Below the pieces are notes generated by a model. It saw only the letters and a list, made by a program, of their open reading frames with translations. It had not been told where the DNA came from and searched no databases. The translations under genes were made by a program, and so were the position numbers. A stretch of 64,000 bases of DNA from Pseudomonadota bacterium (GTDB lineage Bacteria > Pseudomonadota > Alphaproteobacteria > Rhodobacterales > Rhodobacteraceae), in contig JBCCXY010000007.1 of NCBI GenBank assembly GCA_039190895.1, positions 1,357 to 65,356 on the forward strand, read 5' to 3'. Numbering within the stretch: the first letter of the stretch is position 1; every line of letters begins with the position of its first letter. This document shows positions 2,688 to 54,011 of this stretch, piece by piece.

Positions 2688-2737
2688 TTCGAAACCGATA
2701 TTTGCGCGAGTTAATTTGCACTGTTCATTTCACGGTT
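2688..2737 (+). promoter_or_regulatory. tts-box-like elements upstream of the TtsI-like regulator gene
   Basis: GCGATTCGAAACCGATA ... CTGTTCATTTCACGGTTG. TTCGAAACC and TTCACGGTT elements shared with the 14.8-kb and 22.4-kb promoter regions. Confidence 0.3.
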
Positions 2738-2879
2738 GTGTTGCGCCCGACCAAAGAAGTCACACACAAGTGTCACAGTGATGGGGCACTTCGGGATAGC
2801 CCATCGCGCCGTCGGTTCGGGCTTGGGCCGCGTCGCTGCAAGGCGAAGTGCACGAGTTTTTTTGGGGGATGTTCTCAAA

Positions 2880-3566
2880 ATGTTTAATCAAGCTCATATC
2901 TTAGTCGCCGACGAAGATCGCACGCATACACATCGGCTTAGCCTCGATCTGCAGGCCGCTGGGTTCAAGGTCTCCAGTGTTCGGTCGGGTGACAGCGCAC
3001 TCGATTCCATTCTGAACAAGGCGCCGGATTTGCTGATGGCCGAACGCTGCCTAAGCGGCGTCTCGGGCATCGAACTCTGCCGCAAGCTGAAGGGCGACTC
3101 GCTGACCCGCGCGATGCCGATCCTGATGTTCGGGACGAATTCGGACCACGTCGACCTCGCCCGCGCACTCGATACCGGGGCGGACGACTTCGTCCACAAG
3201 CCCGTGACGGCCATCGAACTCGTCGCCCGCGCCCGCGCCCTTCTGCGCCGTGCTAAGCCGGTCAGCGTTGGCGACCGGATCGAGTATCAGGACATCGTCG
3301 TGGAGATGGAGACGCTGCGCGCCTTCCGCAACGACAAGCCGCTCAAGCTCGGCCCGACCGAGTTCAACATCCTCGCCACCTTCGTCGCCAAACCGGGCCG
3401 CGTCTGGTCGCGCGACCAGTTGCTCGACGTTGTTTGGGGGCCGGACACCTACATCGACCCGCGCACCGTCGACGTTCATGTCGGGCGCCTGCGGAAGACG
3501 CTGAAGGCTGCGGGCGACGGCGACCCGTTCCGCACGATCCGCGGCGCCGGATACGCGCTCGGCTGA
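2880..3566 (+). CDS. atypical OmpR/PhoB-family response regulator (TtsI-like; phospho-acceptor Asp replaced by Glu)
   Basis: Receiver domain (ILVADED..., PDLLMAERCLSGVSGIELCRKLK, conserved T and K) plus a winged-helix C-terminus (LGPTEFNILATFVAKPGRVWSRDQLLDVVWG...VDVHVGRLRKTL). In-frame ATG at 2880; the track ORF starts at 2736. No adjacent histidine kinase. Confidence 0.8.
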   Translation: MFNQAHILVADEDRTHTHRLSLDLQAAGFKVSSVRSGDSALDSILNKAPDLLMAERCLSGVSGIELCRKLKGDSLTRAMPILMFGTNSDHVDLARALDTGADDFVHKPVTAIELVARARALLRRAKPVSVGDRIEYQDIVVEMETLRAFRNDKPLKLGPTEFNILATFVAKPGRVWSRDQLLDVVWGPDTYIDPRTVDVHVGRLRKTLKAAGDGDPFRTIRGAGYALG

Positions 3567-3717: not shown

Positions 3718-4371
3718 ATGAGTACCGAAAAAATCCATCTGAAACAGTGGGTTGAAACGATTTTCGGCGCGCGCCGACTAATCGCCCGCGTCTTTAAAGT
3801 CGTGTCATATTCGGCTGTTCTTCTGATCGCGAGCCTAGCACTGACAGGGAAGACGATGGCCCTCGACGCGAAATTCACGGAACCGTTTCCCTACGTGGCC
3901 ATGGGGTCTGACGTTCGGGCGGTGCTGTCGGACATGGGCCGCCGGATGGGCGTCACCGTGCGCATCGATCCCGCCGTCACGGGCGAGGTATCGACCGAAA
4001 ATTCGCAGGGCACCGTGCAGACACTGCTGGACGAAACGCTAGCCCAGACCGGCGCCACTTGGTGGTACGACGGCGTCATCCTGCATGTGGAACCGCAGGA
4101 CGGCCTCAGCTCGTCGCTGATCATCAGCCAGGGCCTCGGCATCCCCGAAATCGAAGCCGAACTCGCCACGCTCGACCTGCTGGACGGACGCTTCCCGCTG
4201 ATGTCCACCGCCGACGGCGCCGTGATCCGCGTGATCGGCCCGCGCGGCTATGTCGAGCAGGTCCGCAACCTCGTTGAAACCCTCATCCAGACGCGCCGCG
4301 CGCGGACCGGAACGCCCGATGAGGTCGGGCTGTACGTGCCGCGCGTCTTCCACGGCCGCGTGCTCAATTAA
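3718..4371 (+). CDS. secretin N-terminal (N0/STN-like) domain protein; candidate N-part of a split T3SS secretin (RhcC1/NolW-like)
   Basis: 217 aa with an N-terminal TM/signal segment (VVSYSAVLLIASLALTG). The segment VRAVLSDMGRRMGVTVRIDPAVTGEVSTENSQGTVQTLLDETLAQTGATWWYDGVILHVEP matches the secretin N0/STN domain pattern. GGAG RBS upstream. Confidence 0.5.
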   Translation: MSTEKIHLKQWVETIFGARRLIARVFKVVSYSAVLLIASLALTGKTMALDAKFTEPFPYVAMGSDVRAVLSDMGRRMGVTVRIDPAVTGEVSTENSQGTVQTLLDETLAQTGATWWYDGVILHVEPQDGLSSSLIISQGLGIPEIEAELATLDLLDGRFPLMSTADGAVIRVIGPRGYVEQVRNLVETLIQTRRARTGTPDEVGLYVPRVFHGRVLN

Positions 4372-4386
4372 CCTCGGGAGAGACCC

Positions 4387-4695
4387 ATGAGCGATCCGTT
4401 CGACAACGCCGAGAACACCGAAGACCTCCACCTCCTGATGGCCGTCGCGGTCCTCTGTGGGCACAAGGGCGTCACGTCCGACATGCAGGCGGTCTATGAG
4501 ATCTGGTCCAAGTGCTATCCCACCGACGCGCTCGGCGGGATCGGGCGGGGGCTGACGATGATCGGCAATGGACGGCCCCGCGAAGGCTATCGCCTGATCG
4601 AAGAGACGGCCCGCACCGCCGAGACACGCGGCGATCAGGCGAAAGAGGTGCTCTCGTCGCTGCAACGCGACATGCGCGAACTGGTCAACGGCTGA
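4387..4695 (+). CDS. small T3SS-associated protein (paralog of next gene)
   Basis: 102 aa with a good RBS. Shares the IW..P.DA.G.IG.GL.M...G pattern with the downstream ORF. Confidence 0.4.
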   Translation: MSDPFDNAENTEDLHLLMAVAVLCGHKGVTSDMQAVYEIWSKCYPTDALGGIGRGLTMIGNGRPREGYRLIEETARTAETRGDQAKEVLSSLQRDMRELVNG

Positions 4696-4718
4696 CGGCA
4701 CGACAGGGGGCACACCGG

Positions 4719-5120
4719 ATGGAACTCAACCGCGGCGACATGAAGCTTCTGACCGAATGCGGCTATTCGGGCGTTCTGCGCAATATCGACACGACGCTGA
4801 CGCCGATCTTCGAGGCGCTCGATGTCTGGATGCCCGACCAAAGCGCCGGGCCCATAGGGCTGGCGTTGGAGGCGATGGTCGCCGGTGACATCCGCCGCGC
4901 GGATGAGATCCTGACAAACCTCCAGCGCTCCAAGCGCCAGGGCCGGGCCGAGGCGAAGGCCATTCTCGCGCTCTGCAAGGCGCTGCAGAACGACCGCGCC
5001 GCGGCCGAGGGGCTTGCCGATGACCTGCAGGGGCAGGGCGGCAACGCCGAGGAATTCACCCGTCACCTGACGGGCCGCGAAGTCGACACGCCGTCCACGA
5101 CGACCGTCGCCGCGGAATAA
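4719..5120 (+). CDS. small T3SS-associated protein (paralog of previous gene)
   Basis: 133 aa starting at an internal ATG (MELNRGDMKLL...); the track ORF starts at 4512. Similar core to 4387..4695. Confidence 0.4.
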   Translation: MELNRGDMKLLTECGYSGVLRNIDTTLTPIFEALDVWMPDQSAGPIGLALEAMVAGDIRRADEILTNLQRSKRQGRAEAKAILALCKALQNDRAAAEGLADDLQGQGGNAEEFTRHLTGREVDTPSTTTVAAE

Positions 5121-5197
5121 GGATAGACGGCCGGGTCCGCCCGCGTTCGGTCGTCTTGGGTTAGCGGGCAACTTCGAAGGCATGAAAGGAAACGATC

Positions 5198-5443
5198 ATG
5201 GGACTTTTGAGCGGTATCGGAGACGCCATCAGCGGCGTCGCTGATGCAGTCACCGGCGCGATCGGTGGCATCGCCGAGGCGGTAGGTGGCATCACCGACG
5301 TGCTCGGCGGCTTTATGAATTCTCCTCTCGGAGGCTTGATTGCGGCGGTCTTTCCGCCCGCGGGCGCGGTGATGGGCGGGCTGAATATGCTCGGCATGGC
5401 CACAGACCTCGCCCAGATGGTCGCTGGAGGGGAAGACTACTAA
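5198..5443 (+). CDS. glycine-zipper small protein (81 aa)
   Basis: MGLLSGIGDAISGVADAVTGAIGGIAEAVGG... is a Gly/Ala-rich membrane-active-looking peptide with an RBS, in the T3SS island. Confidence 0.35.
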   Translation: MGLLSGIGDAISGVADAVTGAIGGIAEAVGGITDVLGGFMNSPLGGLIAAVFPPAGAVMGGLNMLGMATDLAQMVAGGEDY

Positions 5444-5867
5444 CCCGATGACCGGGGAGGATGGCTGGTTCTTAATTGTCGCCAGCAACGACCCCAGCCA
5501 TCCTCGCCCGCCACGCTAACGAAACACAGAGAGATATGACCCACGCAACCGACACCACAGCCCAAGGCCAAGGCAGAGCCCGCCGCGCCGCGCAATTGCG
5601 CGCCGGACTGCGCCGCCTTGCGCGCCGGGCCGGTCGGTTCCGTGGACAGGTGATCCGCCGCCTTGTTCAGGCGGTGGCCCGGTCTGCCCAACCCAGCAGA
5701 CCGTCGTCGCTTGGGGTTTTGCCCCGTCGCGACACCATGCCTTCCGCTCACCTCAAGTTCACCCGGTTGGGCCTCGGCCTGGCAGGGGGCGGTGGCGGAA
5801 GCCCGGGTTAAACGTCCATTTTTGCGCGAACTGACTTCAGCAACCTTGGACGATTGGTTTTTCTGGT

Positions 5868-6245
5868 ATGAGCTCACTTGGTGACATCGGCGCGATCAGT
5901 GGCGTCACGAATTACGCCAACCCGACCAGCCCCGCACAGCTTGGCAACGACGTATCGCTGTCGGACATGGCGCGAGAGCTTCTGTCGAACATCTCGACAA
6001 TGCAGAGCGATTTCCAGAACGAGGTTGTGCCAGCGGCGCAGGGCTCGGACGAGGCGCTGATCGCCTCGCGCCCCGTCGAGGGCGCCGATGCCTCGGGCCA
6101 GCCGGTGACGGACGCCGCGAAGGCGCTGGTCGATCAGATCCAGCAAAGTACCCAAGTTCAGGAACAGCTGACGCGCTTCATGATGGCTTCTTCCGTTTCG
6201 TCCTCGCTGGGGCGAAACCTGAACATGTTCCTGCGAGGACAGTAA
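5868..6245 (+). CDS. putative inner-rod protein (SctI-like)
   Basis: 125 aa immediately upstream of sctJ with a TAATG overlap. C-terminus QEQLTRFMMASSVSSSLGRNLNMFLRGQ resembles rod/needle family C-termini (YscI/PrgJ-like). Confidence 0.45.
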   Translation: MSSLGDIGAISGVTNYANPTSPAQLGNDVSLSDMARELLSNISTMQSDFQNEVVPAAQGSDEALIASRPVEGADASGQPVTDAAKALVDQIQQSTQVQEQLTRFMMASSVSSSLGRNLNMFLRGQ

Positions 6246-7021
6246 TGTTTTCCACATTGCGACGACTAACCGCCGTGGCGGCGGCCTGCCTCGTGCTGGC
6301 CGGATGCAAGTCGGAACTCTTCACCGACATGTCCGAACGCGAGGCGAACCAGGTGATCGCGGCCCTGATGTCCGAAGGCATCCCGGCGTCGAAATCCTCA
6401 AGCCGGGGGGATGGCGTGACCGTCATGATTGACCAGTCCCGCTTCGCCGAGGCGATTGAGATCCTGAACGCCCGGGGCCTGCCCTCCGACAAGTACGACA
6501 GCTTTGGCGACGTGTTCGAAAAGGACGGCCTGGTGTCATCGCCGATGGAGGAGCGCGCGCGCTATATTTACGCATTGAGTCAGGAGCTTAGCCGCACGAT
6601 TGCCGAGATCGACGGCGTCCTCTCGGCCCGCATCCACGTGGTGTTGCCCGAGACCGACATGCTGGGCCGCGACTTCAAGCCAAGCTCGGCGTCCGTGTTC
6701 ATCCGCCATCTCGACGATGCGCCGGTCGCGAACTTTACCTCGCAAATCCGCCTGCTCGTGTCGAACTCCATCGAGGGGCTGGTCTACGACAACGTCACCG
6801 TCGTCGCCGTGCCCGCCGAGGCGAAAGACGTCTCCACCGGCAATGGCCCGATCCTGCAGGACGTGCTTGGCGTCTGGGTCCACCCAAACTCCGTCTCCCG
6901 GCTGTGGCTGATCGTCGGCAGCATCGGTGGCGTCGCGGTCCTCGCGCTAGGGCTGTTGGGCCTACAAAGCCTCTCGCGTCACCGGCGCGGGCAGGACGAT
7001 GACTTCGACCTTGCGAGCTGA
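6245..7021 (+). CDS. sctJ: T3SS inner-membrane ring lipoprotein SctJ (YscJ/RhcJ/NolT family)
   Basis: 258 aa with lipobox LAGC. ELFTDMSEREANQVIAALMSEGIPA...SFGDVFEKDGLVSSPMEERARYIYALSQELSRTIAEIDGVLSARIHVVLPE aligns closely with YscJ. C-terminal TM present. Confidence 0.9.
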   Translation: MFSTLRRLTAVAAACLVLAGCKSELFTDMSEREANQVIAALMSEGIPASKSSSRGDGVTVMIDQSRFAEAIEILNARGLPSDKYDSFGDVFEKDGLVSSPMEERARYIYALSQELSRTIAEIDGVLSARIHVVLPETDMLGRDFKPSSASVFIRHLDDAPVANFTSQIRLLVSNSIEGLVYDNVTVVAVPAEAKDVSTGNGPILQDVLGVWVHPNSVSRLWLIVGSIGGVAVLALGLLGLQSLSRHRRGQDDDFDLAS

Positions 7022-7023
7022 CC

Positions 7024-7491
7024 ATGGCCAACCGTCGCGATCCCAATTCCGTTGACGTGGCGCGGGCCCGGGTGGCCCTCGCCGCCGGAGACGCGCCCTC
7101 GCGCACCAGCCGCCGCCGTAACGGTCTCGCTCCGGGTTTTGCCGGGGTGGACACCGCCGTTTTGCTCGCCGCCGCCGACCCCAAGCGCCGCGCCGCCGTC
7201 GTGGCCCGCGCCGCTGCGGCCGCCCACGGGCATGAGATCGCCCGCGCCATCGACGCCGCTGCCCGGGCCGAAATCGTCGACACCCTCGGCCCCGACGCCC
7301 GCACCTTCGGCCTCGCCCACCGCCATCTGTCCTGCGCCCCCGCTGGCGGCGGCGCCCTGGCGGACCGCCTCACCGACACCCGCAGCGCCGCCGACCTCGC
7401 CCTGAACGCCCATCTCAGCGGCGCCCCGCTTGACGCCACGCCCCTCGGCGCCTGCCTCTTCGCCGCCCTGTCGTCCGGGGCGCCCAAATGA
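7024..7491 (+). CDS. T3SS cytoplasmic component (SctK/NolU-like), hypothetical
   Basis: 155 aa between sctJ and sctL, in the conserved position. Confidence 0.4.
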   Translation: MANRRDPNSVDVARARVALAAGDAPSRTSRRRNGLAPGFAGVDTAVLLAAADPKRRAAVVARAAAAAHGHEIARAIDAAARAEIVDTLGPDARTFGLAHRHLSCAPAGGGALADRLTDTRSAADLALNAHLSGAPLDATPLGACLFAALSSGAPK

Positions 7492-8054
7492 CCCGCGCCC
7501 GCATCCTCCGCCGCGCCGAGGTCGAGCGTCTGCGTGCCGCCGATGCCCTCGAACAGCGCCTCGCCGAAGAGCACGCCCAGCGCCTCGCCGCCGTCGAAGA
7601 GGAGCGCGCCGCGATCCTCCAGCACGCGCAAGACCGGGCCATCCGCGAAAGCACCCAAACCGCGTCGCGCATCGTCATGGACGCCGAAGCTGCCGCCCAA
7701 CGCCAGCTCACCGCACTCGAACCCGAGGTCGCCGCGCTTGTGTCAGAGACCGTCACCCGCGTCATCGGCGCCATGGACCAGTCCGACGCAATCCGCCGCG
7801 CCACCCAGCAGGCGCTGTTCGACCTGAAAGACCACCGCCGCGCTCGCATCCTGGCCGCGCCCGACGTCGTCGACGCCGTCCGCTCGGGCGTCGAGGCCGC
7901 AGGCGGGGCGGGGGCCAACGTCATCTCGGTCGAGGTTGATGAGAGGCTGGAGGCTGGCCGCACTCTTCTTTCCAGCGACCAGGGCCACGTCGAAATCGGC
8001 CTGTCCGACCAGCTCGACGCCGTCACCGAAGCCTTCCGGCGGACAGATCCATGA
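7488..8054 (+). CDS. sctL: T3SS ATPase stator SctL (FliH/YscL family)
   Basis: 188 aa, coiled-coil rich. C-terminus ANVISVEVDERLEAGRTLLSSDQGHVEIGLSDQLDAVTEAF fits the SctL/FliH signature. ATGA overlap with upstream gene. Confidence 0.7.
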   Translation: MTRARILRRAEVERLRAADALEQRLAEEHAQRLAAVEEERAAILQHAQDRAIRESTQTASRIVMDAEAAAQRQLTALEPEVAALVSETVTRVIGAMDQSDAIRRATQQALFDLKDHRRARILAAPDVVDAVRSGVEAAGGAGANVISVEVDERLEAGRTLLSSDQGHVEIGLSDQLDAVTEAFRRTDP

Positions 8055-8097
8055 TCAGGCGTTCCAGAAAATATCGAGCAATAACAATATTCTACAG

Positions 8098-8117
8098 CCG
8101 GTCCCCATGGGGACCGC
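8098..8117. repeat. palindromic element CGGTCCCCATGGGGACCGCC (copy 1) in the sctL-sctN intergenic region
   Basis: Perfect palindrome GGTCCCCATGGGGACC, preceded by an unusual AT-rich patch (AAATATCGAGCAATAACAATATTCTACAG). Confidence 0.7.
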
Positions 8118-8145
8118 CCAAAATCACGACCGTCCGGGTGCCGTC

Positions 8146-16685: not shown

Positions 16686-16832
16686 ATGGCAGATGCACTT
16701 GGCCAGATGAAAGCGGCGTTTGCGGATGCTCAGGCGGCTCAGGCGGAGATCACCGTCGAGACGATGAAGCACCAGACGATCATGAAGACCCTCGAAGCCA
16801 TGAAGAAGGCCTTCGAAGCAATCCGGGGCTAA
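16686..16832 (+). CDS. 48-aa helical-hairpin protein, candidate T3SS pilin/needle subunit (NopA/SctF-like)
   Basis: MADALGQMKAAFADAQAAQAEITVETMKHQTIMKTLEAMKKAFEAIRG. Strong GGAGAA RBS. Followed by a very stable hairpin before sctD. Below the track's 60-aa cutoff. Confidence 0.4.
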   Translation: MADALGQMKAAFADAQAAQAEITVETMKHQTIMKTLEAMKKAFEAIRG

Positions 16833-16840
16833 TCCCCTTC

Positions 16841-16868
16841 GCGGGGCGCGCGATGTCGCGCGCCCCGC
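16841..16868 (+). promoter_or_regulatory. stable GC hairpin (attenuator-like) between the pilin-like gene and sctD
   Basis: GCGGGGCGCGCG-atgt-CGCGCGCCCCGC is a perfect 12-bp stem with no T-tract. Confidence 0.5.
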
Positions 16869-16900
16869 AAACTCTGCTGCTGGATGTTGGGGGGTGCGCG

Positions 16901-17806
16901 ATGGCCGCACGTGGAAAACGCGACTACCTGCTCACGGTTCTGACCGGCCCGAATGCCGGGGCTCAGCAGACATTGACGAAACGCCGTGTGACGCTTAGTG
17001 CGTCCGGCACGTCTGACTTTTATCTCGACGGGCTCGACGAAGGCGACGTGGAAATCACCGTCGCCAAGGATCGCGTCCGTGTCGCATCGGACCGCGGCGA
17101 CGTCGCGCTGCACGGCAAGCCGCCGCCGCCCTCGGGACAGGCGCTGATCGCACAACTGCCCGCAACGTTCGACCTCGGCCACGTCGCGCAGATCAACATC
17201 AGCACATCGGGCGGCACAGCGTCCCGTGGGGCAGGGCGCCTCGTCGGCATCGCGGCGGTGCTCCTGCTGTTCGCAGGCGGAGGAGTCGCGCTCCAAAGCT
17301 CACTGGGGCAGGGGTTCATCACGGAAGTCGTGGCCTCAACACCCGACACCGTGACCTACACCCAGGCCCCCATCGCCACCACGGCGCCGGTAGAAGAAGA
17401 ACCCGCGCGCCCGAAGGTCACCTTCGACGACGCCCGCACCGCGCTGGAAAACGCGGTCGAAAATGCCGGGCTCGACGGCCTCACCCTTCGCTCCGAAACC
17501 GGCGTGATCCGGGTCACCGGCACGATCAACAAAAGCCGCCTCGGCGCCTGGAACGAGATCCGCAAGGCGTATGACAGCCAGTTCGGCCTCATCGGCCCGC
17601 TGCTGGTCAACATCACCGAAGAGAGCGACGCACCGCCCCTTGCCGTCGCCTCCGTCTGGCTGGGCGAAAACCCCCAGATCACCACCCGCGACGGCACCGT
17701 GATGGGCATCGGTGACGGCACCGAAAGCGGCTGGAAGCTTTCGGTGATCGAAGCCACCTCGGTCAAGCTGACGCGCGGTCGCCAGACCATCGTCATCGAG
17801 TTCTAG
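16901..17806 (+). CDS. sctD: T3SS inner-membrane ring protein SctD (YscD/PrgH-like, N-terminal FHA-like domain)
   Basis: N-terminal FHA-like segment (YLLTVLTGPNAGAQQTLTKRRVTLSASGTSDFYLDGLDEGDVEITVAKDRV), one TM (LVGIAAVLLLFAGGGVAL), then a periplasmic domain. ATG at 16901. Confidence 0.65.
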   Translation: MAARGKRDYLLTVLTGPNAGAQQTLTKRRVTLSASGTSDFYLDGLDEGDVEITVAKDRVRVASDRGDVALHGKPPPPSGQALIAQLPATFDLGHVAQINISTSGGTASRGAGRLVGIAAVLLLFAGGGVALQSSLGQGFITEVVASTPDTVTYTQAPIATTAPVEEEPARPKVTFDDARTALENAVENAGLDGLTLRSETGVIRVTGTINKSRLGAWNEIRKAYDSQFGLIGPLLVNITEESDAPPLAVASVWLGENPQITTRDGTVMGIGDGTESGWKLSVIEATSVKLTRGRQTIVIEF

Positions 17807-17809
17807 GCC

Positions 17810-18178
17810 ATGGCCGCCCGCCAACTCTCGCCGGTCGGACAAGATCTGCGCACCGACCCCATCCGCGCCATTGCCGAGGCCGACCTCCAGTCGCGCCCGC
17901 CCGGCACACCCACCGATGTCCCGGTTATCGACACCGGCCCCGACCTTGTCGAACCCTCCCGCCCGCTCGCGCCGCAGGGCATGGCTGGGCTCGTGGATGA
18001 GGCGCTGGGCTCCGTCAAACTGCCGACGCTGCTCGAACTCGCCAACGCGCTGGAGGACATGGCAGGCTACACCAGCCGCCTTGCCGACATCGACCCCGCG
18101 ATGGCCGAAGTTGCTCAGGCCGTCCTGTCCGACGAGCAGGCCAAAGTCCTCCGCTACGTGGACCTGCGCGACAGATGA
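17810..18178 (+). CDS. SctX-like small T3SS protein (122 aa)
   Basis: Two 120-aa genes immediately upstream of sctV with coupled starts, as with yscX-yscY-yscV in Yersinia. Confidence 0.35.
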   Translation: MAARQLSPVGQDLRTDPIRAIAEADLQSRPPGTPTDVPVIDTGPDLVEPSRPLAPQGMAGLVDEALGSVKLPTLLELANALEDMAGYTSRLADIDPAMAEVAQAVLSDEQAKVLRYVDLRDR

Positions 18179-18546
18179 ACCAGATGACCCCCCTCTCGCA
18201 GTCGGACAAACCCGACCGCCGCTCCGCAGAGGTCATCGCAGGCCTCGCCACCCTTTACTTCCGCTATAACGACCCGGCTCGCGCGTTGGTCCTTGGCATT
18301 GCCGCCATGAAGTCCGGCGCCGCAGGCCCCCGCACCGCGCTCCTCGTCGCGTCTTGCTTTCTGAAAACCGGCGATGCCGAACAGGCCGCCGCCGCCTTGG
18401 AGCCGCTGGAGGACGTCGACCTCACCCAACAGGAAGCCGCGGCCTACAAGTACCTGAAAGCAAAGGTCGCCTTCCGCCTGTCCGACCCCGACACGGCCCG
18501 CGCCCTGCTGGCGGAAGCCGCCCAAATCGCGGACACCGCGCAATGA
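18175..18546 (+). CDS. SctY-like TPR-like chaperone (123 aa)
   Basis: Helical TPR-like pattern (ATLYFRYNDPARALVLGIAAMKSG...AAYKYLKAKVAFRLSD). ATGA overlap into sctV. Confidence 0.35.
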   Translation: MNQMTPLSQSDKPDRRSAEVIAGLATLYFRYNDPARALVLGIAAMKSGAAGPRTALLVASCFLKTGDAEQAAAALEPLEDVDLTQQEAAAYKYLKAKVAFRLSDPDTARALLAEAAQIADTAQ

Positions 18547-20597
18547 CCATGCTCGCCGCCCTTGGCCGCAAACTCGCCCTGCGCCAGGACCTCGCGCTGG
18601 TCCTCTTGCTGCTGATGACGATCTTCATGATCATCCTGCCGCTGCCGACCTGGCTGATCGACCTGCTGATCGGCGTGAACCTCAGCCTCGTGCTGCTGGT
18701 CCTCGTCGTCACCGTCTACCTCAAGACGCCCACGGCGTTCTCGACCCTCCCAGCCGTCCTGCTGTTCTCAACCCTCTTCCGCCTCGCCATCTCGATCTCC
18801 ACCACCCGGATGATCCTCGTGCAGGCCGACGCGGGCCGCATTGTCGAAACCTTCGGCGAATTCGTCCTCTCGGGCTCCCTCATCGTCGGCCTCGTGGTGT
18901 TCCTCATCATCACCGTCGTCCAGTTCGTCGTGATCACCAAGGGCTCCGAACGCGTCGCCGAAGTCTCCGCCCGCTTCTCCCTCGACGCCCTGCCGGGCCG
19001 CCAGATGTCCATCGACAGCGACATGCGCGCGGGCGAAATCAACATGGCCGAGGCCAAACGCCGCCGCGCCGACCTGCAACTCGCCTCCGAATTCTACGGC
19101 TCCATGGACGGCGCCATGAAGTTCGTGAAAGGAGACGCCATCGCGGGCCTGATCATCATCGCGGTGAACATCCTCGGCGGCATCGCCGTGGGCGTCGGCC
19201 AGAACGGCATGGACTTCGGCGCCGCCGTCGGGCGCTATTCGGTGCTGACCGTGGGCGACGGCCTCGTCAGCCAGATCCCGGCGCTGCTGATGGCCATCAG
19301 CTCCGGCATTGTGATCACCCGGATCACCAACGACGAAAGCACCGATCTTGGCCGCGACATCGCCGCCCAGATGTCGGCAAGCCCAAAGGCCCTGCTGATC
19401 GCGTCCGGCGTCCTCGTCCTCTTCAGCCTGATCCCCGGCTTCCCGATGCTGACGTTCCTGGCGCTGGCGACGTTCTTCGCCATCGTCGGCGGCTTCGCCC
19501 ACGTCGCCGCGACGCGCAAGTCGGAGACGGGCCCGCAGGGGCCGGCGACGGCCGCCGAGCTGAGGCAAGACCTCCTCCTCGCCCCCATGGCCCCCGTCCA
19601 CGTTGGCATCGGCCCGGGTCTCGCCGCCGTCCTCGACCGCAATGCCTTCCGGGGCGAAGCGCTGTCTGAACGCAGCCGCCTCTTCGACCAGATCGGCGTC
19701 CCGTTCCCGCCCGTCGTACTGGTGGATGAACCCGACGCCCCCGACAGCCAATGGCGCCTCATCATCGAAGGCGTCCCCGTCACAGAGGGCACCCTGCCGC
19801 TCGGCAAACTCCGCGTCACGGATGACCCGGAGGCCGCCGAAATCCTCTCCGTCCCCCTCGACGAAATCGAGCTTTCCCAGACCCTGCAACGCACCCACTG
19901 GGCCGGCGCGGCGCACGGCCCGCTGCTGGCGAAAAACGGCGTCGCGACCCAATCGCTCGAAGCCACCCTCGCCATGCTCGTCGGCCAACGCCTCCCGAAA
20001 CACGCCTCCGAATTCCTCGGCGTGCACGAGGCGAACTCCATCCTCACTTCCATGGAAGCCCGCTACGACGACCTCGTTGGTGAAGCGCAAAAGGCCCTCC
20101 CGCTCCAGAAAATCGCCATGGTCATGCGCCGCCTCGTGGAAGAGGAAGTCCCCATCCGCAACATGCGCATCGTCCTCGAAACCGTCGTCGAATGGGGCGC
20201 GCGCGAGAAAGACCCCGACATCCTCGCCGAATACGTCCGCGCCGCACTGTCCCGCCAGATCAGCCACAAATACGCTGACGGCGACCGCTTCATCCCGGCC
20301 TTCGTCGTCGAAAGCGATGTCGAAGACACCATCCGCAACGCCCTGCGCCAATCCAGCGCGGGCACGTTCCTGTCTATGGAAGCCCAGCAATCCCGCGCGC
20401 TGCTCGCCAACATCAAAAAGGCGGTCGGAGACCTCGCCGGACACGCCTCCATGCCTGTCTTTTTGGCAACAATGGACACAAGACGTCACCTCAAACGGTT
20501 TCTTTCCGACCACGAGGTGGAATGCCCCGTGTTATCCCATAAAGAGATAGCGACCAGCTATAAGGTCCAACCGCTCTCTATGGTCTCAATGCGATGA
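18543..20597 (+). CDS. sctV: T3SS export gate SctV (FlhA/YscV/LcrD family)
   Basis: 684 aa. N-terminal 8-TM FHIPEP region (ISTTRMILVQADAGRIV..., FVKGDAIAGLIIIAVNILGGI) and a large cytoplasmic domain. Confidence 0.92.
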   Translation: MTMLAALGRKLALRQDLALVLLLLMTIFMIILPLPTWLIDLLIGVNLSLVLLVLVVTVYLKTPTAFSTLPAVLLFSTLFRLAISISTTRMILVQADAGRIVETFGEFVLSGSLIVGLVVFLIITVVQFVVITKGSERVAEVSARFSLDALPGRQMSIDSDMRAGEINMAEAKRRRADLQLASEFYGSMDGAMKFVKGDAIAGLIIIAVNILGGIAVGVGQNGMDFGAAVGRYSVLTVGDGLVSQIPALLMAISSGIVITRITNDESTDLGRDIAAQMSASPKALLIASGVLVLFSLIPGFPMLTFLALATFFAIVGGFAHVAATRKSETGPQGPATAAELRQDLLLAPMAPVHVGIGPGLAAVLDRNAFRGEALSERSRLFDQIGVPFPPVVLVDEPDAPDSQWRLIIEGVPVTEGTLPLGKLRVTDDPEAAEILSVPLDEIELSQTLQRTHWAGAAHGPLLAKNGVATQSLEATLAMLVGQRLPKHASEFLGVHEANSILTSMEARYDDLVGEAQKALPLQKIAMVMRRLVEEEVPIRNMRIVLETVVEWGAREKDPDILAEYVRAALSRQISHKYADGDRFIPAFVVESDVEDTIRNALRQSSAGTFLSMEAQQSRALLANIKKAVGDLAGHASMPVFLATMDTRRHLKRFLSDHEVECPVLSHKEIATSYKVQPLSMVSMR

Positions 20598-21853
20598 AAT
20601 TGCTGATAAGAACGCTTCTCGGCCTATCCCTGATCCTCACAACCCTTCCGGCCATTTCGCAATCCGCGAACCGATCTCTGGTTGAAGGAACCGGGCAGGT
20701 CGTGACCCTGTCGCGCCCCGCATCCTCGATCTTCGTGGGCGACCCGGGCGTCGCCGATGTCCGCGTTGTGTCCGGAACCGCCCTGTTCCTCGCAGGCATC
20801 TCCCCGGGCACCACCAACGTCTTCGCGCTCGACTTCGAAGATCAACTCATCGCCAGCTACACCGTTCGCGTCGTCGCCGACAACGCCGAAGCCCGCGCCA
20901 CCATCGGCTCTGCCGTGCCCAACGGCTCCATCCAGATCCGCTCCAACGAAGGCGCCGCCATCCTGCGCGGGCGCGCCAACAGCCTGAATGAGGCGCTGGC
21001 CGCCCTCGACGCCCGCCGCTCCCTCGAAGCCAACGATCGCCTCGTCGTGGATCGCACCACGATCAAGAACGGCACGCAGGTCTCGCTGAAGGTGCGCTTC
21101 GTCGAAGCCTCCCGATCCGACCTGCGCCAACTGGGCTTCGACCTCTCGGCCCTCGGCTCCGTCAACGGCAACCCCCTGCGATTGCTGACGGGAGACGGCA
21201 TCGCCGCCGACTTCCTTAACGGCACAACGGGGCTTGGCGGCAACGGCCTCCGCGCCGGGGTCCGCACCAGCGATGTCGACGCGGTGCTCTCGGCGCTGGA
21301 CGAACGCGGCGTCGTTGAAATCCTCTCCGAACCCACGCTCACCACCACCTCTGGCCGCCGCGCCAACTTCCGCGCAGGCGGCGAATTCGGCTTCCCCGTC
21401 CCGCAAGGCGACGGCGTCATCGGCGTGGAGTACCGGGAGTTCGGCGTCTCGCTCGACTTCCTCCCCACCGTCCTGCCCAACAACCGCATCGCCCTCGAAG
21501 TCTCGCCCGAGGTCAGCTTCATCGACCCCGAGATCGGCGTCGACGTCGACGGCTTCGTCACCCCCAGCCTCTCCGTCCGCCGGGCCGAGACGACGGTCGA
21601 GGTCGGCAGTGGCCAGACCTTCGCCATCGCCGGGCTCTACGAACAGTTCGAATCCGACAGCAATCGCGGCGTCCCGGGCCTCAGCAACGCGCCGGTCGTC
21701 GGCCGCCTCTTCGGCCGCGAAACCCGCCGTCGGGACGAACGCGAGCTGGTGATCTTCATCACCCCCTTCCTCGCCGAAGCGAGCGACATTGCCGAGCCCA
21801 ATCGCCCGGACAAACCCAAACTCGTCGACAGCGTGGGGTTCATCGTCAAATGA
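20594..21853 (+). CDS. sctC: secretin (SctC C-part; Tad/CpaC-like N-terminus), RhcC2-like
   Basis: Signal peptide. N-terminal region VTLSRPASSIFVGDPGVADVRVVSGTALFLAGISPGTTNVFALD resembles CpaC/RcpA. C-terminal secretin signature GVPGLSNAPVVGRLFGRETRRRDERELVIFITPFL. ATGA overlap with sctV. Confidence 0.8.
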   Translation: MKLLIRTLLGLSLILTTLPAISQSANRSLVEGTGQVVTLSRPASSIFVGDPGVADVRVVSGTALFLAGISPGTTNVFALDFEDQLIASYTVRVVADNAEARATIGSAVPNGSIQIRSNEGAAILRGRANSLNEALAALDARRSLEANDRLVVDRTTIKNGTQVSLKVRFVEASRSDLRQLGFDLSALGSVNGNPLRLLTGDGIAADFLNGTTGLGGNGLRAGVRTSDVDAVLSALDERGVVEILSEPTLTTTSGRRANFRAGGEFGFPVPQGDGVIGVEYREFGVSLDFLPTVLPNNRIALEVSPEVSFIDPEIGVDVDGFVTPSLSVRRAETTVEVGSGQTFAIAGLYEQFESDSNRGVPGLSNAPVVGRLFGRETRRRDERELVIFITPFLAEASDIAEPNRPDKPKLVDSVGFIVK

Positions 21854-22260
21854 AGAAAGGCATCGCCCTCGTCCTCCTTCCGCTCGCCCTCACGGCCTGC
21901 GAAGCACCCGCCCCGGAAGAGCGTCTGAGCATCATGACCCGCTCCACCGAGCCGCTCTATCAGAAGCGCGCCGACGGCAAGATCGCCGCGTCAAGCTGCC
22001 TCGCCCGAACACCCGCAAGCTACGGCAACGTGCCCTCGGCCTGCACCATCGACACGATCACCGCCCAACAGGTCGCGAACCCCCACGACCTCGTCCACCC
22101 GCACCCCCCGGGCCCGGCCCCGGCCTACCCCCGTGCAGCGGCGGCCTATGAATACATATACGGCGAAATGCCCAACGATGCCGCCGCGGAAGACCCGCAA
22201 CCCGGCATCCTCATACCCGTCGAACCCGACCCCGCCGCTGCCGAAGACGACGCCGGCTAG
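21850..22260 (+). CDS. lipoprotein immediately downstream of secretin (candidate pilotin)
   Basis: 136 aa, lipobox LALTAC, overlaps the secretin stop. Pro-rich, acidic C-terminus. Confidence 0.5.
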   Translation: MKKGIALVLLPLALTACEAPAPEERLSIMTRSTEPLYQKRADGKIAASSCLARTPASYGNVPSACTIDTITAQQVANPHDLVHPHPPGPAPAYPRAAAAYEYIYGEMPNDAAAEDPQPGILIPVEPDPAAAEDDAG

Positions 22261-22432: not shown

Positions 22433-23656
22433 ATGGGTACAGGCGCAGACGGCGTAGGCTCGGACGATGGCCCAACCGGGGGCGACAACGACGGCCCGGA
22501 CGCCGACGTCTCGGATGCAGGGGCCGCCACCGACGCAGGCATGGCGGAAGCCGCCGAAGCCGAAGGCGGATCAGGCGATGACGGCGGAACGGGCGATGAC
22601 GGCACCGGAACGTCCTCTGACCCGGACAGCACGGATACCGACACCGAAGAAGAAGCCGCGGCCGCCCACGACGCCGCCGTCGCCGCTGACCAGGCCGCGA
22701 TGGATCGCACCCGCGAAGCGGCACGTGGAACGCATCCGGCAGAGGTTGATCCGGCAGAGACGGATCCCACAGCCGAAACCGACCCGACCGCTGAGACGGA
22801 CCCCGAGGTAGCCGAAACGGACCCCGAGGTCGAAGAAGACGTCGCAGACGAAGAGACCCCACCCGAACAGGCCCCAGCCGCCACAGCCGTCCCCGGCACA
22901 TATGCCGACAGCTATGTCTCGCAGGGCCTCTCTGGCGTGAACGAAGGCATCGCCGCCGTCCTCGGCGGCCCTGTCGACCTTGTGGAAATGGGGCTCAACG
23001 GCCTGTCCTGGGGCGCCGAACAAGCCGCCAGTGTGGTGGGTGTAGAGCCGGGCTGGGCGCCGGAATTCGAGAACTCGTTCCTCGGCTCCAACCACATCGA
23101 AGGCATGATGACCGACATGGGCTCCATCGCGCCCGAAAGCGCGGACCCCAACCGCCAAACCGTCCGTGACGTGGCCGCCATCGGCACCGAGGTCGCCTCG
23201 GTCTTCACCGGGGTCGGCCTGGCGCGATCCGGCATGGGCCTCGCCAACCAGGTCGATGACGTGGCCGAAACCGTCGGCCCATCGCTTCTGCCCGATGAGG
23301 GCCTCGTCGGGACATACGACGACCTGATCGCTGCCGGGCGTGTCGGTGATGACATCACCCCACACCACGTCCCGTCGGCCAACCACATGGGACAGCACGG
23401 CGTGCGACCGGGAGACGGCATTGCCATCAACATGGAGCATCCCCATCCCGGCGCGGGCGGGCGACACCGCGAGACGTTCACCTACGGCACGCAAGCTGAT
23501 GTCGACATGGACCCACGCGACGCGCTCGCCGCCGGAATCCGCGACGCCCGCTCGATCTACCAGGGCGCCGGCCTGTACGGTGACCGTATACGCGAGGGCC
23601 TGCAGGAGGTTATAGAGCAGAACAGGGATGCATTCCCGGAGCTGTTCAACCGGTGA
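22433..23656 (+). CDS. acidic repeat-containing protein; candidate T3SS effector or translocator
   Basis: 407 aa. N-terminal Gly/Asp-rich region with (A/P)E(T/V)DP tandem repeats, a central Gly/Ala-rich hydrophobic stretch, and a C-terminal His-rich motif (ITPHHVPSANHMGQHGVRPGDGIAINMEHPHPGAGGRHRETF). Confidence 0.5.
   Translation: MGTGADGVGSDDGPTGGDNDGPDADVSDAGAATDAGMAEAAEAEGGSGDDGGTGDDGTGTSSDPDSTDTDTEEEAAAAHDAAVAADQAAMDRTREAARGTHPAEVDPAETDPTAETDPTAETDPEVAETDPEVEEDVADEETPPEQAPAATAVPGTYADSYVSQGLSGVNEGIAAVLGGPVDLVEMGLNGLSWGAEQAASVVGVEPGWAPEFENSFLGSNHIEGMMTDMGSIAPESADPNRQTVRDVAAIGTEVASVFTGVGLARSGMGLANQVDDVAETVGPSLLPDEGLVGTYDDLIAAGRVGDDITPHHVPSANHMGQHGVRPGDGIAINMEHPHPGAGGRHRETFTYGTQADVDMDPRDALAAGIRDARSIYQGAGLYGDRIREGLQEVIEQNRDAFPELFNR
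22735..22850 (+). repeat. in-frame imperfect tandem repeats (15-21 bp units) encoding ETDP-type repeats
   Basis: ...gcagaggttgatccg gcagagacggatccc acagccgaaaccgacccg accgctgagacggacccc gaggtagccgaaacggacccc gaggtcgaagaag. Confidence 0.7.
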
Positions 23657-24111
23657 CCATGACAACAGACATCGAAGAAACCCTCTCGCAGCTCGGCACG
23701 CTTGACGCGGGCGCGCCCGACTTCGTGCCCCGGTTCGAGGCGGGATTGGCCGAGGTGGTTCCGCGTTTGGACGGGGCGATGATGCCCCGGCTTCTGACGC
23801 TGTTTGCCGATGACAGGCCGGACGCCGCGATGTTCTCGTTGATCCATACGGTCGAGAAACTGGACCGCGCGACCTACCTGTCCGGCCTCGCCGATGGGAT
23901 GTCCTCCCTTGTGCGCGTGGCGCCGCGCTGGGCGTCGATCATCGTGATGCGGGTCCTCAACGATCCCGACTATGTCCAAGCCTTCGGAACGGAATTGCGC
24001 GACCGCGATGCCGAGACGAAAGAGGCCGTGACGTGGCTCATGAACGCGATCAATGCCCGCTCATCGAGTTTCAAGGAAAAGACGCAGCCGCTGCTTGATG
24101 CCATGCAGTGA
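23653..24111 (+). CDS. small acidic protein overlapping the effector-like gene (class I chaperone-like, or immunity-like)
   Basis: 152 aa, acidic. GTG at 23653 or ATG at 23659 overlaps the upstream stop. Confidence 0.4.
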   Translation: MTMTTDIEETLSQLGTLDAGAPDFVPRFEAGLAEVVPRLDGAMMPRLLTLFADDRPDAAMFSLIHTVEKLDRATYLSGLADGMSSLVRVAPRWASIIVMRVLNDPDYVQAFGTELRDRDAETKEAVTWLMNAINARSSSFKEKTQPLLDAMQ

Positions 24112-24139
24112 TGCGCCAGCCCTTACGCAGGCCCGGCGC

Positions 24140-46629: not shown

Positions 46630-46654
46630 GGTGTGGCCTCCCGGGGTGCGGAGC

Positions 46655-46812: not shown

Positions 46813-46819
46813 CAGGGGA

Positions 46820-54010: not shown

Positions 54011-54011
54011 G

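What the first reader, a model, noticed from the sequence alone, without database searches (positions are those of the whole stretch)
3718..4371. Secretin encoded in two separate genes, 16 kb apart, with a Tad/CpaC-like body
The protein at 3718..4371 (217 aa) looks like a stand-alone secretin N0/STN domain. The protein at 20594..21853 (419 aa) carries a CpaC/RcpA-like N-terminal beta-rich region and the C-terminal secretin signature (NAPVVGRLFG...ELVIFITPFL). It is far shorter than a canonical SctC of about 600 aa. Rhizobial Rhc systems have a split secretin (RhcC1/NolW plus RhcC2), and Tad-derived secretins have been reported for some T3SS lineages. The lipoprotein at 21850..22260 is a candidate pilotin. 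The TadD-like TPR lipoprotein at 24947..25681 is a candidate assembly factor.
Basis: partly seen in the sequence, partly recalled or inferred. Interest (0 to 1): 0.6.

Follow-up and report, generated by a model that had tools for sequence, protein, structure and literature searches.

The report
Two-part secretin of Rhc-type T3SS
The window holds a complete type III secretion gene cluster of the rhizobial (Rhc) kind. As already described for that family, its outer-membrane pore is made from two separate proteins, a short leftover of the original injectisome secretin and a pore taken from a Tad pilus system, so the finding is real but ordinary.

Summary
Both observations hold. The protein at 3718-4371 is a stand-alone N0+N1 module of a T3SS secretin. 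It matches TIGR02516 positions 2-148, and its AlphaFold model superposes on the N0N1 domains of EscC, InvG and MxiD. The protein at 20594-21853 is a Tad-type secretin (pil_N plus Secretin domains; best solved relative is RcpA, E 1e-41). Its start overlaps the sctV stop, and the window contains no tad genes.

The next gene, 21850-22260, encodes a CpaD-like lipoprotein. The TPR lipoprotein at 24947-25681 is homologous to the proteins that occupy the TadD position in genuine tad loci.

This is the RhcC1/RhcC2 "split secretin", the published hallmark of Rhc-family T3SS (Abby & Rocha 2012; Tampakaki 2014; Gazi 2012; Mercante 2015). The two genes are not halves of one gene. RhcC1 is a remnant of the ancestral SctC, and RhcC2 was recruited from a Tad system.

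What is new is the host, an uncultured MAG that looks Rhodobacterales-like. Its system belongs to a well-supported clade shared with Paracoccus plasmids. Two conserved terminal motifs suggest how the pieces dock.

Verdict: a new member of a known kind, of low interest.

The parts
3718..4371 (+). RhcC1/NolW-type protein: signal peptide, then the N0 and N1 domains of a T3SS secretin, then a short conserved tail (VPRVFHGR, residues 207-214). It has no secretin pore domain.
   Evidence: TIGR02516 positions 2-148 of 463, E 3.8e-21. PDB sequence hits to MxiD, EscC and InvG N0N1. AF2 model and Foldseek. A family of 155-275 aa stand-alone homologues, many carrying precomputed PF21304 and/or PF03958 hits, one of them named RhcC. 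Tail motif conserved in 55 members. A Shine-Dalgarno-like GGGGGAG lies upstream of the ATG.
20594..21853 (+). RhcC2: a Tad-type (CpaC/RcpA-like) secretin. It has a signal peptide, a pil_N beta domain (28-93), an N3-like region, a secretin core (234-392), a variable linker and a conserved C-terminal VGFIVK.
   Evidence: Pfam. Best PDB relative is RcpA 8ODN at E 1.2e-41, against InvG at 1.7e-5. ATGA overlap with the sctV stop. T3SS context conserved in relatives. Tree and bootstrap. C-terminal motif.
21850..22260 (+). CpaD-like small lipoprotein in the Y4xK position (lipobox LTAC), translationally coupled to rhcC2.
   Evidence: ATGA overlap with the rhcC2 stop. Pilus_CpaD is the only Pfam family hit: E 1.4e-3 for this protein, and 3 of 5 orthologues match with best E 2e-5. 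The Inquilinus T3SS locus has a clear Pilus_CpaD protein at the same position. M. loti mlr8762 is described as a CpaD homologue.
24947..25681 (-). TadD-like TPR lipoprotein (lipobox LAAC). It is the candidate pilotin or docking factor for RhcC2.
   Evidence: It is 61% and 51% identical to the TPR lipoproteins that lie directly after the rhcC2-lipoprotein pair in L011 and L012. hhalign against TadD-position lipoproteins of tad loci gives 99.85%, E 1.4e-30 over 210 columns; the control against the small TPR protein gives E 2e-8 over 95 columns. Only 52 of 72,556 plasmids match. Every match whose position was checked lies in or near a T3SS cluster (next to rhcC2 in P. sanguinis and R. sullae) or is the last gene of a tad locus.
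16853..17806 (+). SctD/RhcD (Y4yQ type), the inner-membrane ring protein. It is the expected partner of the RhcC1 N0-N1 ring.
   Evidence: PF23893 Y4YQ_C and PF21934. TIGR02500.
6245..7021 (+). SctJ/RhcJ, the inner-membrane ring lipoprotein.
   Evidence: PF01514, E 5e-30.
18354..20597 (+). SctV/RhcV export gate. This is the ORF as listed; the real start is probably near 18543. Its stop codon overlaps the rhcC2 start.
   Evidence: PF00771 FHIPEP, E 1.5e-203, from residue 90 of the ORF. Junction sequence.
18175..18546 (+). Small cytoplasmic-type TPR protein upstream of sctV, in the YscY/bll1801/PSPPH_2519 position. It has no lipobox and is not the TadD-like protein.
   Evidence: TPR Pfam hits. 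Conserved position in L011, L012, L014 and L017-L019. Gazi 2012.
7488..14196 (+). The rest of the core T3SS operon: sctL, sctN, sctO-like, sctQ, sctR, sctS, an unknown 163-aa ORF, sctT and sctU.
   Evidence: Pfam.
2736..3566 (+). OmpR-type response regulator directly upstream of rhcC1, in a TtsI-like position.
   Evidence: PF00072 plus PF00486. No tts-box-like motif above chance in the window.

Best explanation
The window encodes an Rhc-family (rhizobial-type) type III secretion system whose outer-membrane part is a two-protein chimera.

RhcC2 (20594-21853) is a secretin recruited from a Tad pilus system. It forms the gated outer-membrane pore. It came with two Tad outer-membrane accessory lipoproteins. 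One is a CpaD-like protein encoded immediately downstream. The other is a TadD-like TPR lipoprotein that most likely acts as pilotin by binding the conserved extreme C-terminus of RhcC2 (VGFIVK), as TadD binds the last four to five residues of RcpA.

RhcC1 (3718-4371) is what remains of the ancestral injectisome secretin SctC: its N0 and N1 ring-building domains. It most likely forms the periplasmic ring that contacts the C-terminal domain of SctD (Y4yQ type) and SctJ, and so links the inner-membrane rings to the foreign Tad-type pore. A conserved tail motif after N1 (consensus P-R-V-R-V-F-R-G-G) is a candidate docking peptide.

Shown here: domain identities, folds, homologies, synteny, gene overlaps and motif conservation. 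Inferred: the RhcC1-SctD and RhcC1-RhcC2 contacts, the pilotin role and the binding mode.
For: RhcC1:
- N0+N1 of T3SS secretins by profile, PDB sequence search and model plus Foldseek. T3SS secretins superpose better than T2SS or T4P N-domains.
- All 120 listed relatives are 154-275 aa long, and many carry precomputed PF21304 and/or PF03958 hits.

RhcC2:
- Pfam pil_N plus Secretin.
- RcpA is by far the best solved relative.
- sctV-rhcC2-lipoprotein are joined by ATGA overlaps.
- No CpaB, CpaE, CpaF, TadB/C or Flp gene was found among the window ORFs scanned.
- The module sctD-x-TPR-sctV-rhcC2-lipoprotein recurs in L011, L012, L019, Inquilinus L017, Pseudomonas L018 and S. meliloti L014.
- Relatives of comparable identity in Skermanella, L020 and L021 sit in complete tad loci.
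- T3SS-linked and Tad-linked secretins separate on one branch in 171 of 200 bootstraps. The window clade with Paracoccus has 200 of 200.

Accessory proteins.

C-terminal motif: it is conserved across RhcC2 and CpaC proteins, while the preceding linker varies.

Literature:
- RhcC2 derives from Tad, and RhcC1 is the N-terminal remnant proposed as a linker to SctD (PMC3459982).
- The split secretin is the hallmark of Rhc clusters (PMC3973906; PMC3574062).
- A y4yS (TPR lipoprotein) mutant has less RhcC2 in membranes (PMC4311626).
- RcpA residues 412-416 bind the TadD groove and are essential for secretin assembly (PMC10499894).
Against: - There are no experimental data for this organism, an uncultured MAG.
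- A direct RhcC1-RhcC2 or RhcC1-SctD contact has not been demonstrated in any Rhc system that I could find, and no complex prediction could be run here.
- In the window the TPR lipoprotein gene is on the opposite strand, separated from rhcC2 by a 2.7 kb insert.
- Its single-sequence AF2 model is poor (pLDDT 60), so the rank-2 TadD match is weak.
- The window lipoprotein's own CpaD hit (18.9 bits) is below the Pfam cut-off of 31.1 bits.
- SctN identity does not clearly separate Rhc-II (54.7%) from Ysc (53%) relatives.
- No tts box was found.
Confidence: 0.85

Rival explanations
1. Degenerate system. RhcC1 is a truncated pseudogene remnant of sctC. The CpaC-like gene with its lipoproteins is an orphaned fragment of a decayed tad locus that happens to lie next to sctV. 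On this reading the T3SS has no dedicated functional secretin.
For: RhcC1 lacks any pore domain. RhcC2 and its two lipoproteins are of Tad ancestry. R. etli Rhc-III clusters are reported to lack rhcC2 altogether.
Against: The RhcC1 fold is predicted with pLDDT above 90, and the family has invariant residues at about 28% mean identity. The same sctV-rhcC2-lipoprotein arrangement, with rhcC1 found wherever the fetched stretch reached that far (L012, L014, L017, L019, Paracoccus), persists across loci whose RhcC2 is only 37-61% identical. The genes have 4-bp overlaps. All core sct genes that were identified are uninterrupted ORFs. In M. loti, RhcC2 is a membrane protein of a working T3SS.
Confidence: 0.04
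2. The 20594 protein is a genuine Tad pilus secretin that serves a tad locus elsewhere in the genome and is only fortuitously located in the T3SS island.
For: Its domain architecture and C-terminal motif are the same as those of CpaC/RcpA. Secretins from real tad loci are as much as 42% identical to it.
Against: No tad gene is present in 64 kb. It is translationally coupled to sctV. Every member of its clade whose context was inspected is T3SS-linked (window; P0019, P0020; Paracoccus sp. TOH). The clade separates from Tad-linked proteins in 171 of 200 bootstraps. Genuine tad loci carry their own cpaC between cpaB and cpaD.
Confidence: 0.03
3. RhcC1 and RhcC2 both belong to the T3SS but do not form one continuous channel. 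RhcC1 has another role, for example as a periplasmic assembly or peptidoglycan-spanning scaffold, or as a regulator. RhcC2 contacts SctD directly through its own pil_N (VirB9-like) domain.
For: In rhizobia rhcC1 is reported to be expressed constitutively and without a tts box, unlike the other rhc genes, which has prompted suggestions of an additional function. The RcpA N-domain is predicted to form a periplasmic ring of its own. No RhcC1-RhcC2 contact has been shown.
Against: In canonical injectisomes the N0-N1 domains are exactly the part of SctC that binds the SctD C-terminus (solved InvG N0N1-PrgH and MxiD N0N1-MxiG complexes are among the best structural matches). RhcC1 retains only these domains, plus a conserved tail.
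Confidence: 0.08

Closest known systems
RhcC1 (NolW) plus RhcC2 of rhizobial Rhc T3SS (Sinorhizobium fredii NGR234, Mesorhizobium loti MAFF303099, Bradyrhizobium). The alpha-RhcII subgroup is closest (pNGR234b, S. meliloti LMB1 pB), along with HrcIIC1/HrcIIC2 of Pseudomonas syringae T3SS-2.
   Same: - A stand-alone N0-N1 protein plus a CpaC-like secretin.
- Gene order rhcC1 ... rhcJ-x-rhcL-rhcN-x-rhcQRSTU, and rhcD-x-TPR-rhcV-rhcC2-lipoprotein-TPR lipoprotein.
- SctD with a Y4YQ_C domain.
- A CpaD-like lipoprotein after rhcC2 and a TPR lipoprotein nearby.
   Different: - Low identity: RhcC1 about 28% and RhcC2 about 37% to the S. meliloti Rhc-II proteins.
- RhcC1 is too divergent for the Pfam N0 models.
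- The whole cluster is co-directional on one strand, and no tts box is present.
- The host is an uncultured, Rhodobacterales-like bacterium rather than a rhizobium or a plant pathogen.
- It forms a separate, 200/200-supported clade with Paracoccus.
Plasmid-borne T3SS clusters of Paracoccus (for example Paracoccus sp. TOH p3 NZ_CP098364, P. kondratievae NZ_KP294352, P. sanguinis NZ_CP051543). I found no paper describing them.
   Same: These are the closest cultured relatives: RhcC2 47-48%, RhcC1 32-34%, SctN 69% and TPR lipoprotein 38-42% identical. They have the same split secretin and the same lipoprotein downstream of rhcC2.
   Different: In Paracoccus sp. TOH, rhcC2 lies upstream of rhcC1, about 5.8 kb from the end of one gene to the start of the other. 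An SLT transglycosylase and a 1326-aa protein lie between them, and the TPR lipoprotein gene is after sctU.
RcpA-TadD secretin-pilotin complex of the Pseudomonas aeruginosa Tad system (PDB 8ODN), and cpaC-cpaD of Caulobacter-type tad loci.
   Same: RhcC2 has the same domain layout as RcpA and a conserved extreme C-terminus. The neighbouring lipoproteins are CpaD-like and TadD-like. The pilotin is expected to bind the C-terminal peptide, as it does in RcpA.
   Different: There is no pilus machinery here (no CpaA, B, E or F, TadB/C or Flp). The secretin is coupled to sctV and presumably passes a T3SS needle or pilus rather than a Flp pilus. It needs an adaptor to the SctD/SctJ rings, presumably RhcC1.
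Canonical single-chain injectisome secretins SctC (InvG, EscC, MxiD, YscC, HrcC), about 500-600 aa.
   Same: The RhcC1 N0-N1 module superposes on theirs, with target-normalised TM 0.75-0.83.
   Different: The N3, secretin and S domains are absent from RhcC1. They are supplied by a protein of a different secretin lineage (InvG matches RhcC2 at only E 1.7e-5).

Membership tests
Rhc-family T3SS | Secretin function divided between RhcC1 (N-terminal SctC piece) and RhcC2 (CpaC-like secretin). | tested here: met
Rhc-family T3SS | Conserved central operon order (rhcC1; rhcJ, nolU-like, rhcL, rhcN, rhcO-like, rhcQ, R, S, T, U) and an rhcD-rhcV block. | tested here: met
   Pfam assignments in window order. 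The order is the same as in S. meliloti Rhc-II and as described in the literature. An extra 163-aa ORF lies between sctS and sctT.
Rhc-family T3SS | Core proteins (for example SctN/RhcN) branch within the Rhc clade. | tested here: inconclusive
   Only pairwise identities were obtained: Paracoccus 69%, S. meliloti Rhc-II 54.7%, Ysc 53%, S. fredii 51%. No multi-family tree of core proteins was built.
Rhc-family T3SS (alpha-RhcI subgroup only) | TtsI regulator with tts-box promoters. | tested here: not met
   An OmpR-type response regulator precedes rhcC1, but tts-box-like matches are no more frequent than chance. This is consistent with the non-RhcI subgroups, which also lack tts boxes.
RhcC1/NolW family | A protein of about 200 aa with a signal peptide and only the N0 and N1 domains of a T3SS secretin. 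| tested here: met
Tad-type secretin (CpaC/RcpA) lineage, RhcC2 subgroup | pil_N domain plus secretin domain, closer to RcpA/CpaC than to SctC, GspD or PilQ, and encoded with T3SS genes rather than tad genes. | tested here: met
   Contexts.
TadD-type pilotin | Outer-membrane TPR lipoprotein homologous to TadD and encoded with a CpaC-type secretin. | tested here: met
   Lipobox. hhalign 99.85%, E 1.4e-30, against proteins in the TadD position. The matches are restricted to TPR genes with T3SS or tad neighbours.
TadD-type pilotin | Binds the C-terminal residues of its secretin and is required for multimer assembly. | not testable with these tools
   Only the conservation of the terminal VGF(I/M)xx motif of RhcC2 could be shown.
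CpaD family (PF09476) | Match to Pilus_CpaD above the Pfam gathering score. | tested here: not met
   The window protein scores 18.9 bits against a cut-off of 31.1, over the C-terminal 37 residues only. Three of 5 orthologues match, best E 2e-5. A full CpaD protein sits at the same position in Inquilinus. The protein is therefore a divergent, shortened relative and not a certified family member.
Canonical SctC secretin | One polypeptide with N0, N1, N3, secretin and S domains. | tested here: not met
   RhcC1 ends after N1. No other secretin-domain ORF was found among the window ORFs scanned.

The most novel reading that the evidence does not exclude
The window and its Paracoccus and metagenomic relatives may represent an undescribed Rhc subgroup in non-rhizobial, probably marine or host-associated Rhodobacterales. 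This subgroup would have kept the complete Tad outer-membrane module (CpaC, CpaD and TadD). It also carries polymorphic-toxin-like cassettes with immunity genes inside or beside the island: an unknown 407-aa protein plus Imm30 here, and Endonuclea_NS_2 plus SUKH_6 in L012. That would point to T3SS substrates that are dangerous to the producer, and possibly to a target other than plants.
Probability: 0.1. Interest if true: 0.55.

Novelty: new member of a known kind. Interest (0 to 1): 0.2.

Why it matters
The two-protein secretin of Rhc systems is a textbook case of partial replacement of a machine part by a homologue from another machine. How the retained N0-N1 piece docks onto the foreign Tad-type pore is still unsolved.

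This locus does not change that picture. It extends the known host range of the arrangement to an uncultured Rhodobacterales-like lineage and to Paracoccus.

The comparison also highlights two conserved terminal peptides: the RhcC1 tail (consensus PRVRVFRGG) and the RhcC2 C-terminus (VGFIxx). Both are concrete, testable candidates for the RhcC1-RhcC2 and RhcC2-pilotin interfaces. Cultured Paracoccus strains carrying the related cluster would be a tractable system for those tests.

Tried and rejected
- Pfam alone fails to recognise the 3718 protein. NCBIfam, the PDB sequence search and structure prediction were needed.
- The single genome-contig scan with RhcC2 returned only distant secretins and did not find the source genome.
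- A profile of the TPR lipoproteins searched against PDB sequences was swamped by designed and generic TPR proteins, and TadD did not stand out.
- The single-sequence AF2 model of the TPR lipoprotein was poor (pLDDT 60.3). Its Foldseek result (TadD 8ODN_B at rank 2, E 0.03) counts only as a hint.
- A tts-box search gave no signal above chance.
- SctN pairwise identities do not discriminate Rhc from Ysc.
- Literature searches for Paracoccus or Rhodobacterales Rhc systems found no description.
- I considered and rejected a frameshift or assembly artefact that split a single sctC. The two genes are 16 kb apart and belong to different secretin lineages.
- I considered and rejected an unrecognised tad locus. 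No tad gene was found among the window ORFs scanned.
- AlphaFold-multimer of RhcC1 with RhcC2 could not be run with the tools offered.
Full report
**Layout of the window.** The window has about 65% GC. ORF listing and third-position GC, together with Pfam and NCBIfam scans, show one type III secretion island from about 2736 to 25700, almost entirely on the + strand. In order it contains:

| Coordinates | Assignment |
|---|---|
| 2736-3566 | OmpR-type response regulator |
| 3718-4371 | the first protein of the finding |
| 4387-6245 | several small unknown ORFs |
| 6245-7021 | sctJ |
| 7024-7491 | unknown ORF |
| 7488-8054 | sctL |
| to 9462 | sctN |
| 9459-9935 | sctO-like ORF |
| 9902-10960 | sctQ |
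| from 10965 | sctR, sctS |
| 11859-12350 | unknown 163-aa ORF |
| within 11921-13156 | sctT |
| to 14196 | sctU |
| 14913-15875 | VWD-like protein |
| 16423-16662 | YscE-like co-chaperone |
| 16686-16832 | 48-aa helical ORF |
| 16853-17806 | sctD with a Y4YQ_C domain |
| 17810-18178 | unknown ORF |
| 18175-18546 | small TPR protein |
| to 20597 | sctV |
| 20594-21853 | the second protein of the finding |
| 21850-22260 | small lipoprotein |
| 22433-24712 | 2.7 kb insert |
| 24947-25681 (minus strand) | TPR lipoprotein |

The flanks and the rest of the window encode ordinary metabolism and a MoxR/VWA/DUF4132 system. No CpaA, B, E or F, TadB/C or Flp gene was found among the ORFs scanned.

**The observation.** Both ORFs are real and have coding-type GC3. 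The 217-aa protein has no Pfam hit above threshold. It matches the SctC equivalog TIGR02516 over model positions 2-148 of 463 (E 3.8e-21). It also matches MxiD residues 37-180, the EscC periplasmic domain and the InvG N-terminal domains among solved structures.

A profile search found a family of stand-alone proteins of 154-275 aa. Many carry PF21304 and/or PF03958, and some are named type III secretion protein C or RhcC in Sinorhizobium, Phyllobacterium, Rhizobium and Paracoccus. With 55 of them as the alignment, AlphaFold2 gives pLDDT above 90 for residues 51-190. The topology is N0 (59-126) followed by N1 (130-197). Foldseek against the PDB ranks EscC 3GR5, InvG N0N1 and MxiD N0N1 first (target-normalised TM 0.75-0.83, rmsd 2-3.5 Å). 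They rank ahead of T2SS and T4P secretin N-domains. The protein is therefore an exported N0-N1 module with no pore domain.

The 419-aa protein has T2SS-T3SS_pil_N (28-93) and Secretin (234-392) domains. Its best solved relative is the Tad secretin RcpA (8ODN, E 1.2e-41), while the injectisome secretin InvG scores only 1.7e-5.

**Is the CpaC-like protein part of the T3SS or of a hidden tad locus?** Four lines of evidence place it in the T3SS.

- Its ATG overlaps the sctV stop (ATGA), and its own stop overlaps the ATG of the lipoprotein gene.
- Relatives were placed in genomic context with nine look-ups. Proteins 59-61% identical (L011, L012), 43% (L019), 41% (Inquilinus, L017), 38% (Pseudomonas seleniipraecipitans, L018) and 37% (S. 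meliloti LMB1 pB, L014) all lie in the same module, sctD-x-TPR-sctV-secretin-lipoprotein. An RhcC1-type gene is present wherever the fetched stretch reached that far (L012, L014, L017, L019; also Paracoccus sp. TOH).
- Proteins 37-42% identical from Skermanella (L016), L020 and L021 lie in tad loci with the order flp-cpaA-cpaB-cpaC-cpaD-cpaE-cpaF-tadB-tadC (complete in L016 and L020).
- In a neighbour-joining tree of 118 such secretins, the eight T3SS-labelled and three Tad-labelled sequences are separated by a single branch in 171 of 200 bootstraps. The clade holding the window protein, its metagenomic relatives and the Paracoccus proteins is recovered in 200 of 200.

**The accessory lipoproteins.** The 136-aa lipoprotein after rhcC2 has orthologues at the same position in L011, L012 and Paracoccus (39-53% identity). 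The only Pfam family that any of them touches is Pilus_CpaD: 3 of 5 members match, best E 2e-5, and the window protein scores E 1.4e-3, below the cut-off. In the Inquilinus T3SS locus the gene at this position is a clear CpaD family member. M. loti mlr8762 is described as a CpaD homologue.

The 244-aa TPR lipoprotein at 24947-25681 is 61% and 51% identical to lipoproteins that lie directly after the rhcC2-lipoprotein pair in L011 and L012, in convergent orientation. It is 31% identical to the TPR protein at the equivalent place in S. meliloti Rhc-II.

A profile of six T3SS-linked TPR lipoproteins aligns with the lipoproteins that occupy the TadD position of two tad loci at 99.85% probability, E 1.4e-30, over 210 columns. 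The aligned stretch includes a non-TPR C-terminal segment. The control against the small TPR protein upstream of sctV gives E 2e-8 over 95 columns.

In 72,556 plasmids only 52 records match the window protein. The best are the three Paracoccus T3SS plasmids, followed by TPR genes next to or near rhizobial T3SS-II genes and a Pseudosulfitobacter TPR protein that is the last gene of a complete tad locus. The protein is therefore TadD-like in a specific sense, and not merely TPR-rich.

**Mechanism.** Published work gives the framework.

- Abby and Rocha (PMC3459982) showed that RhcC2 branches with Tad secretins. They showed that RhcC1 is homologous to the N-terminus of injectisome secretins, and proposed a partial gene replacement with RhcC1 retained as a linker to SctD.
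- Tampakaki (PMC3973906) and Gazi et al. (PMC3574062) describe the split secretin as the distinguishing feature of Rhc clusters, including P. syringae T3SS-2.
- Mercante et al. (PMC4311626) found that loss of the TPR lipoprotein Y4yS lowers RhcC2 in membranes.
- Tassinari et al. (PMC10499894) showed that the last four to five residues of RcpA bind the TPR groove of TadD, and that this is essential for secretin assembly.

Two sequence observations made here fit that framework. First, in about 120 RhcC2/CpaC proteins the linker after the secretin core is variable, but the extreme C-terminus is conserved. It reads VGFI(V/L/T)(K/E/R/D) in the window clade and GF(I/Y/M)x(E/D/N) in other T3SS-linked and Tad proteins. 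Second, the RhcC1 family has a conserved motif after the last N1 helix and a proline-rich linker. The consensus is P-R-V-R-V-F-R-G-G, with R and G at 93-96%, and the window protein has VPRVFHGR at 207-214. This segment is predicted with low confidence in isolation, as expected of a docking peptide.

My reading follows.

1. RhcC2 forms the pore.
2. The TadD-like lipoprotein pilots it by binding its C-terminal peptide.
3. The CpaD-like lipoprotein is a further Tad-derived outer-membrane accessory of unknown role.
4. RhcC1 forms the N0-N1 ring that joins SctD and SctJ to the pore.

The domain assignments and homologies are shown here. The contacts are inferred.

**Comparison and membership.** The locus meets the structural definition of an Rhc-family T3SS: a split secretin, the conserved gene order and a Y4yQ-type SctD. 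It resembles the alpha-RhcII arrangement most closely. It has no tts box, like the non-RhcI subgroups. I did not build a core-protein tree. SctN identities (Paracoccus 69%, Rhc-II 54.7%, Ysc 53%) do not settle the subgroup.

**Host.** The source is a 65 kb contig of a MAG labelled only Pseudomonadota. The closest cultured carriers of the system are Paracoccus plasmids. A flanking MttB-family gene is most similar to Leisingera genes (71%). The host is therefore probably a member of the Rhodobacterales, but this is an inference. I found no paper describing Rhc systems in Paracoccus or Rhodobacterales.

**Verdict.** The feature has been in the literature since 2001-2012, so this is a new member of a known kind. 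Interest is low (0.2). The residual value lies in the extended host range, the two candidate interface motifs and the toxin-immunity-like cassette noted in passing.

Noticed in passing
window 22433-24712: A 2.7 kb insert lies between the CpaD-like lipoprotein gene and the TadD-like lipoprotein gene. These two genes are adjacent in relatives L011 and L012. The insert encodes a 407-aa protein with an acidic, low-complexity N-terminal ~150 residues and a histidine-rich C-terminal region (ITPHHVPSANH...) and no hit in Pfam, NCBIfam or the PDB. It overlaps by 4 bp an Imm30 immunity-family gene (23653-24111), which is followed by a DUF416 protein. This looks like a polymorphic-toxin/immunity cassette inside a T3SS island.
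   Followed up: partly
L012 17833-21254: In a related T3SS locus, a 1024-aa DUF4781 plus Endonuclea_NS_2 protein is followed by a SUKH_6 immunity-type gene a few kb from rhcC2. This is a second case of a nuclease-toxin/immunity pair beside this T3SS type.
   Followed up: no
window 16423-16832: A YscE-like needle co-chaperone (PF08988, 28.7 bits, above the cut-off) is followed by a 48-aa all-helical ORF. Counterparts of 48-56 aa occupy the same place in L011, L012, L019 and Paracoccus sp. TOH. This is a candidate very short needle or pilus subunit, and a Ysc-like trait in an Rhc-type cluster.
   Followed up: partly
window 14913-16245: A 320-aa glycine-rich protein with a weak VWD-domain match (E 4e-5) and a 100-aa acidic protein lie between sctU and the yscE-like gene. 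They may be secreted substrates or tip or translocon components. Relatives carry large LysM plus DUF6973 proteins near the cluster instead.
   Followed up: no
window 11859-12350: An extra 163-aa ORF with no family match sits between sctS and sctT. These two genes are adjacent in the L011 and Paracoccus loci. [quoted passage not shown]
   Followed up: no
window 3718-3850: RhcC1 and its two closest relatives have an unusually long N-terminus of about 25 charged residues before the hydrophobic segment. AF2 models residues 7-44 as one helix. It could be a long signal peptide or an uncleaved membrane anchor. More distant family members have ordinary short signal peptides.
   Followed up: no
window 43538-57653 (minus strand): This is a gene block unrelated to the T3SS: two very large HEAT plus DUF4132 proteins, a MoxR-type AAA_5 ATPase, DUF5682, a VWA CoxE-like protein and a SWIM-finger protein. 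It resembles a MoxR-VWA ternary system. The two DUF4132 ORFs, as listed, overlap by about 540 nt.
   Followed up: no
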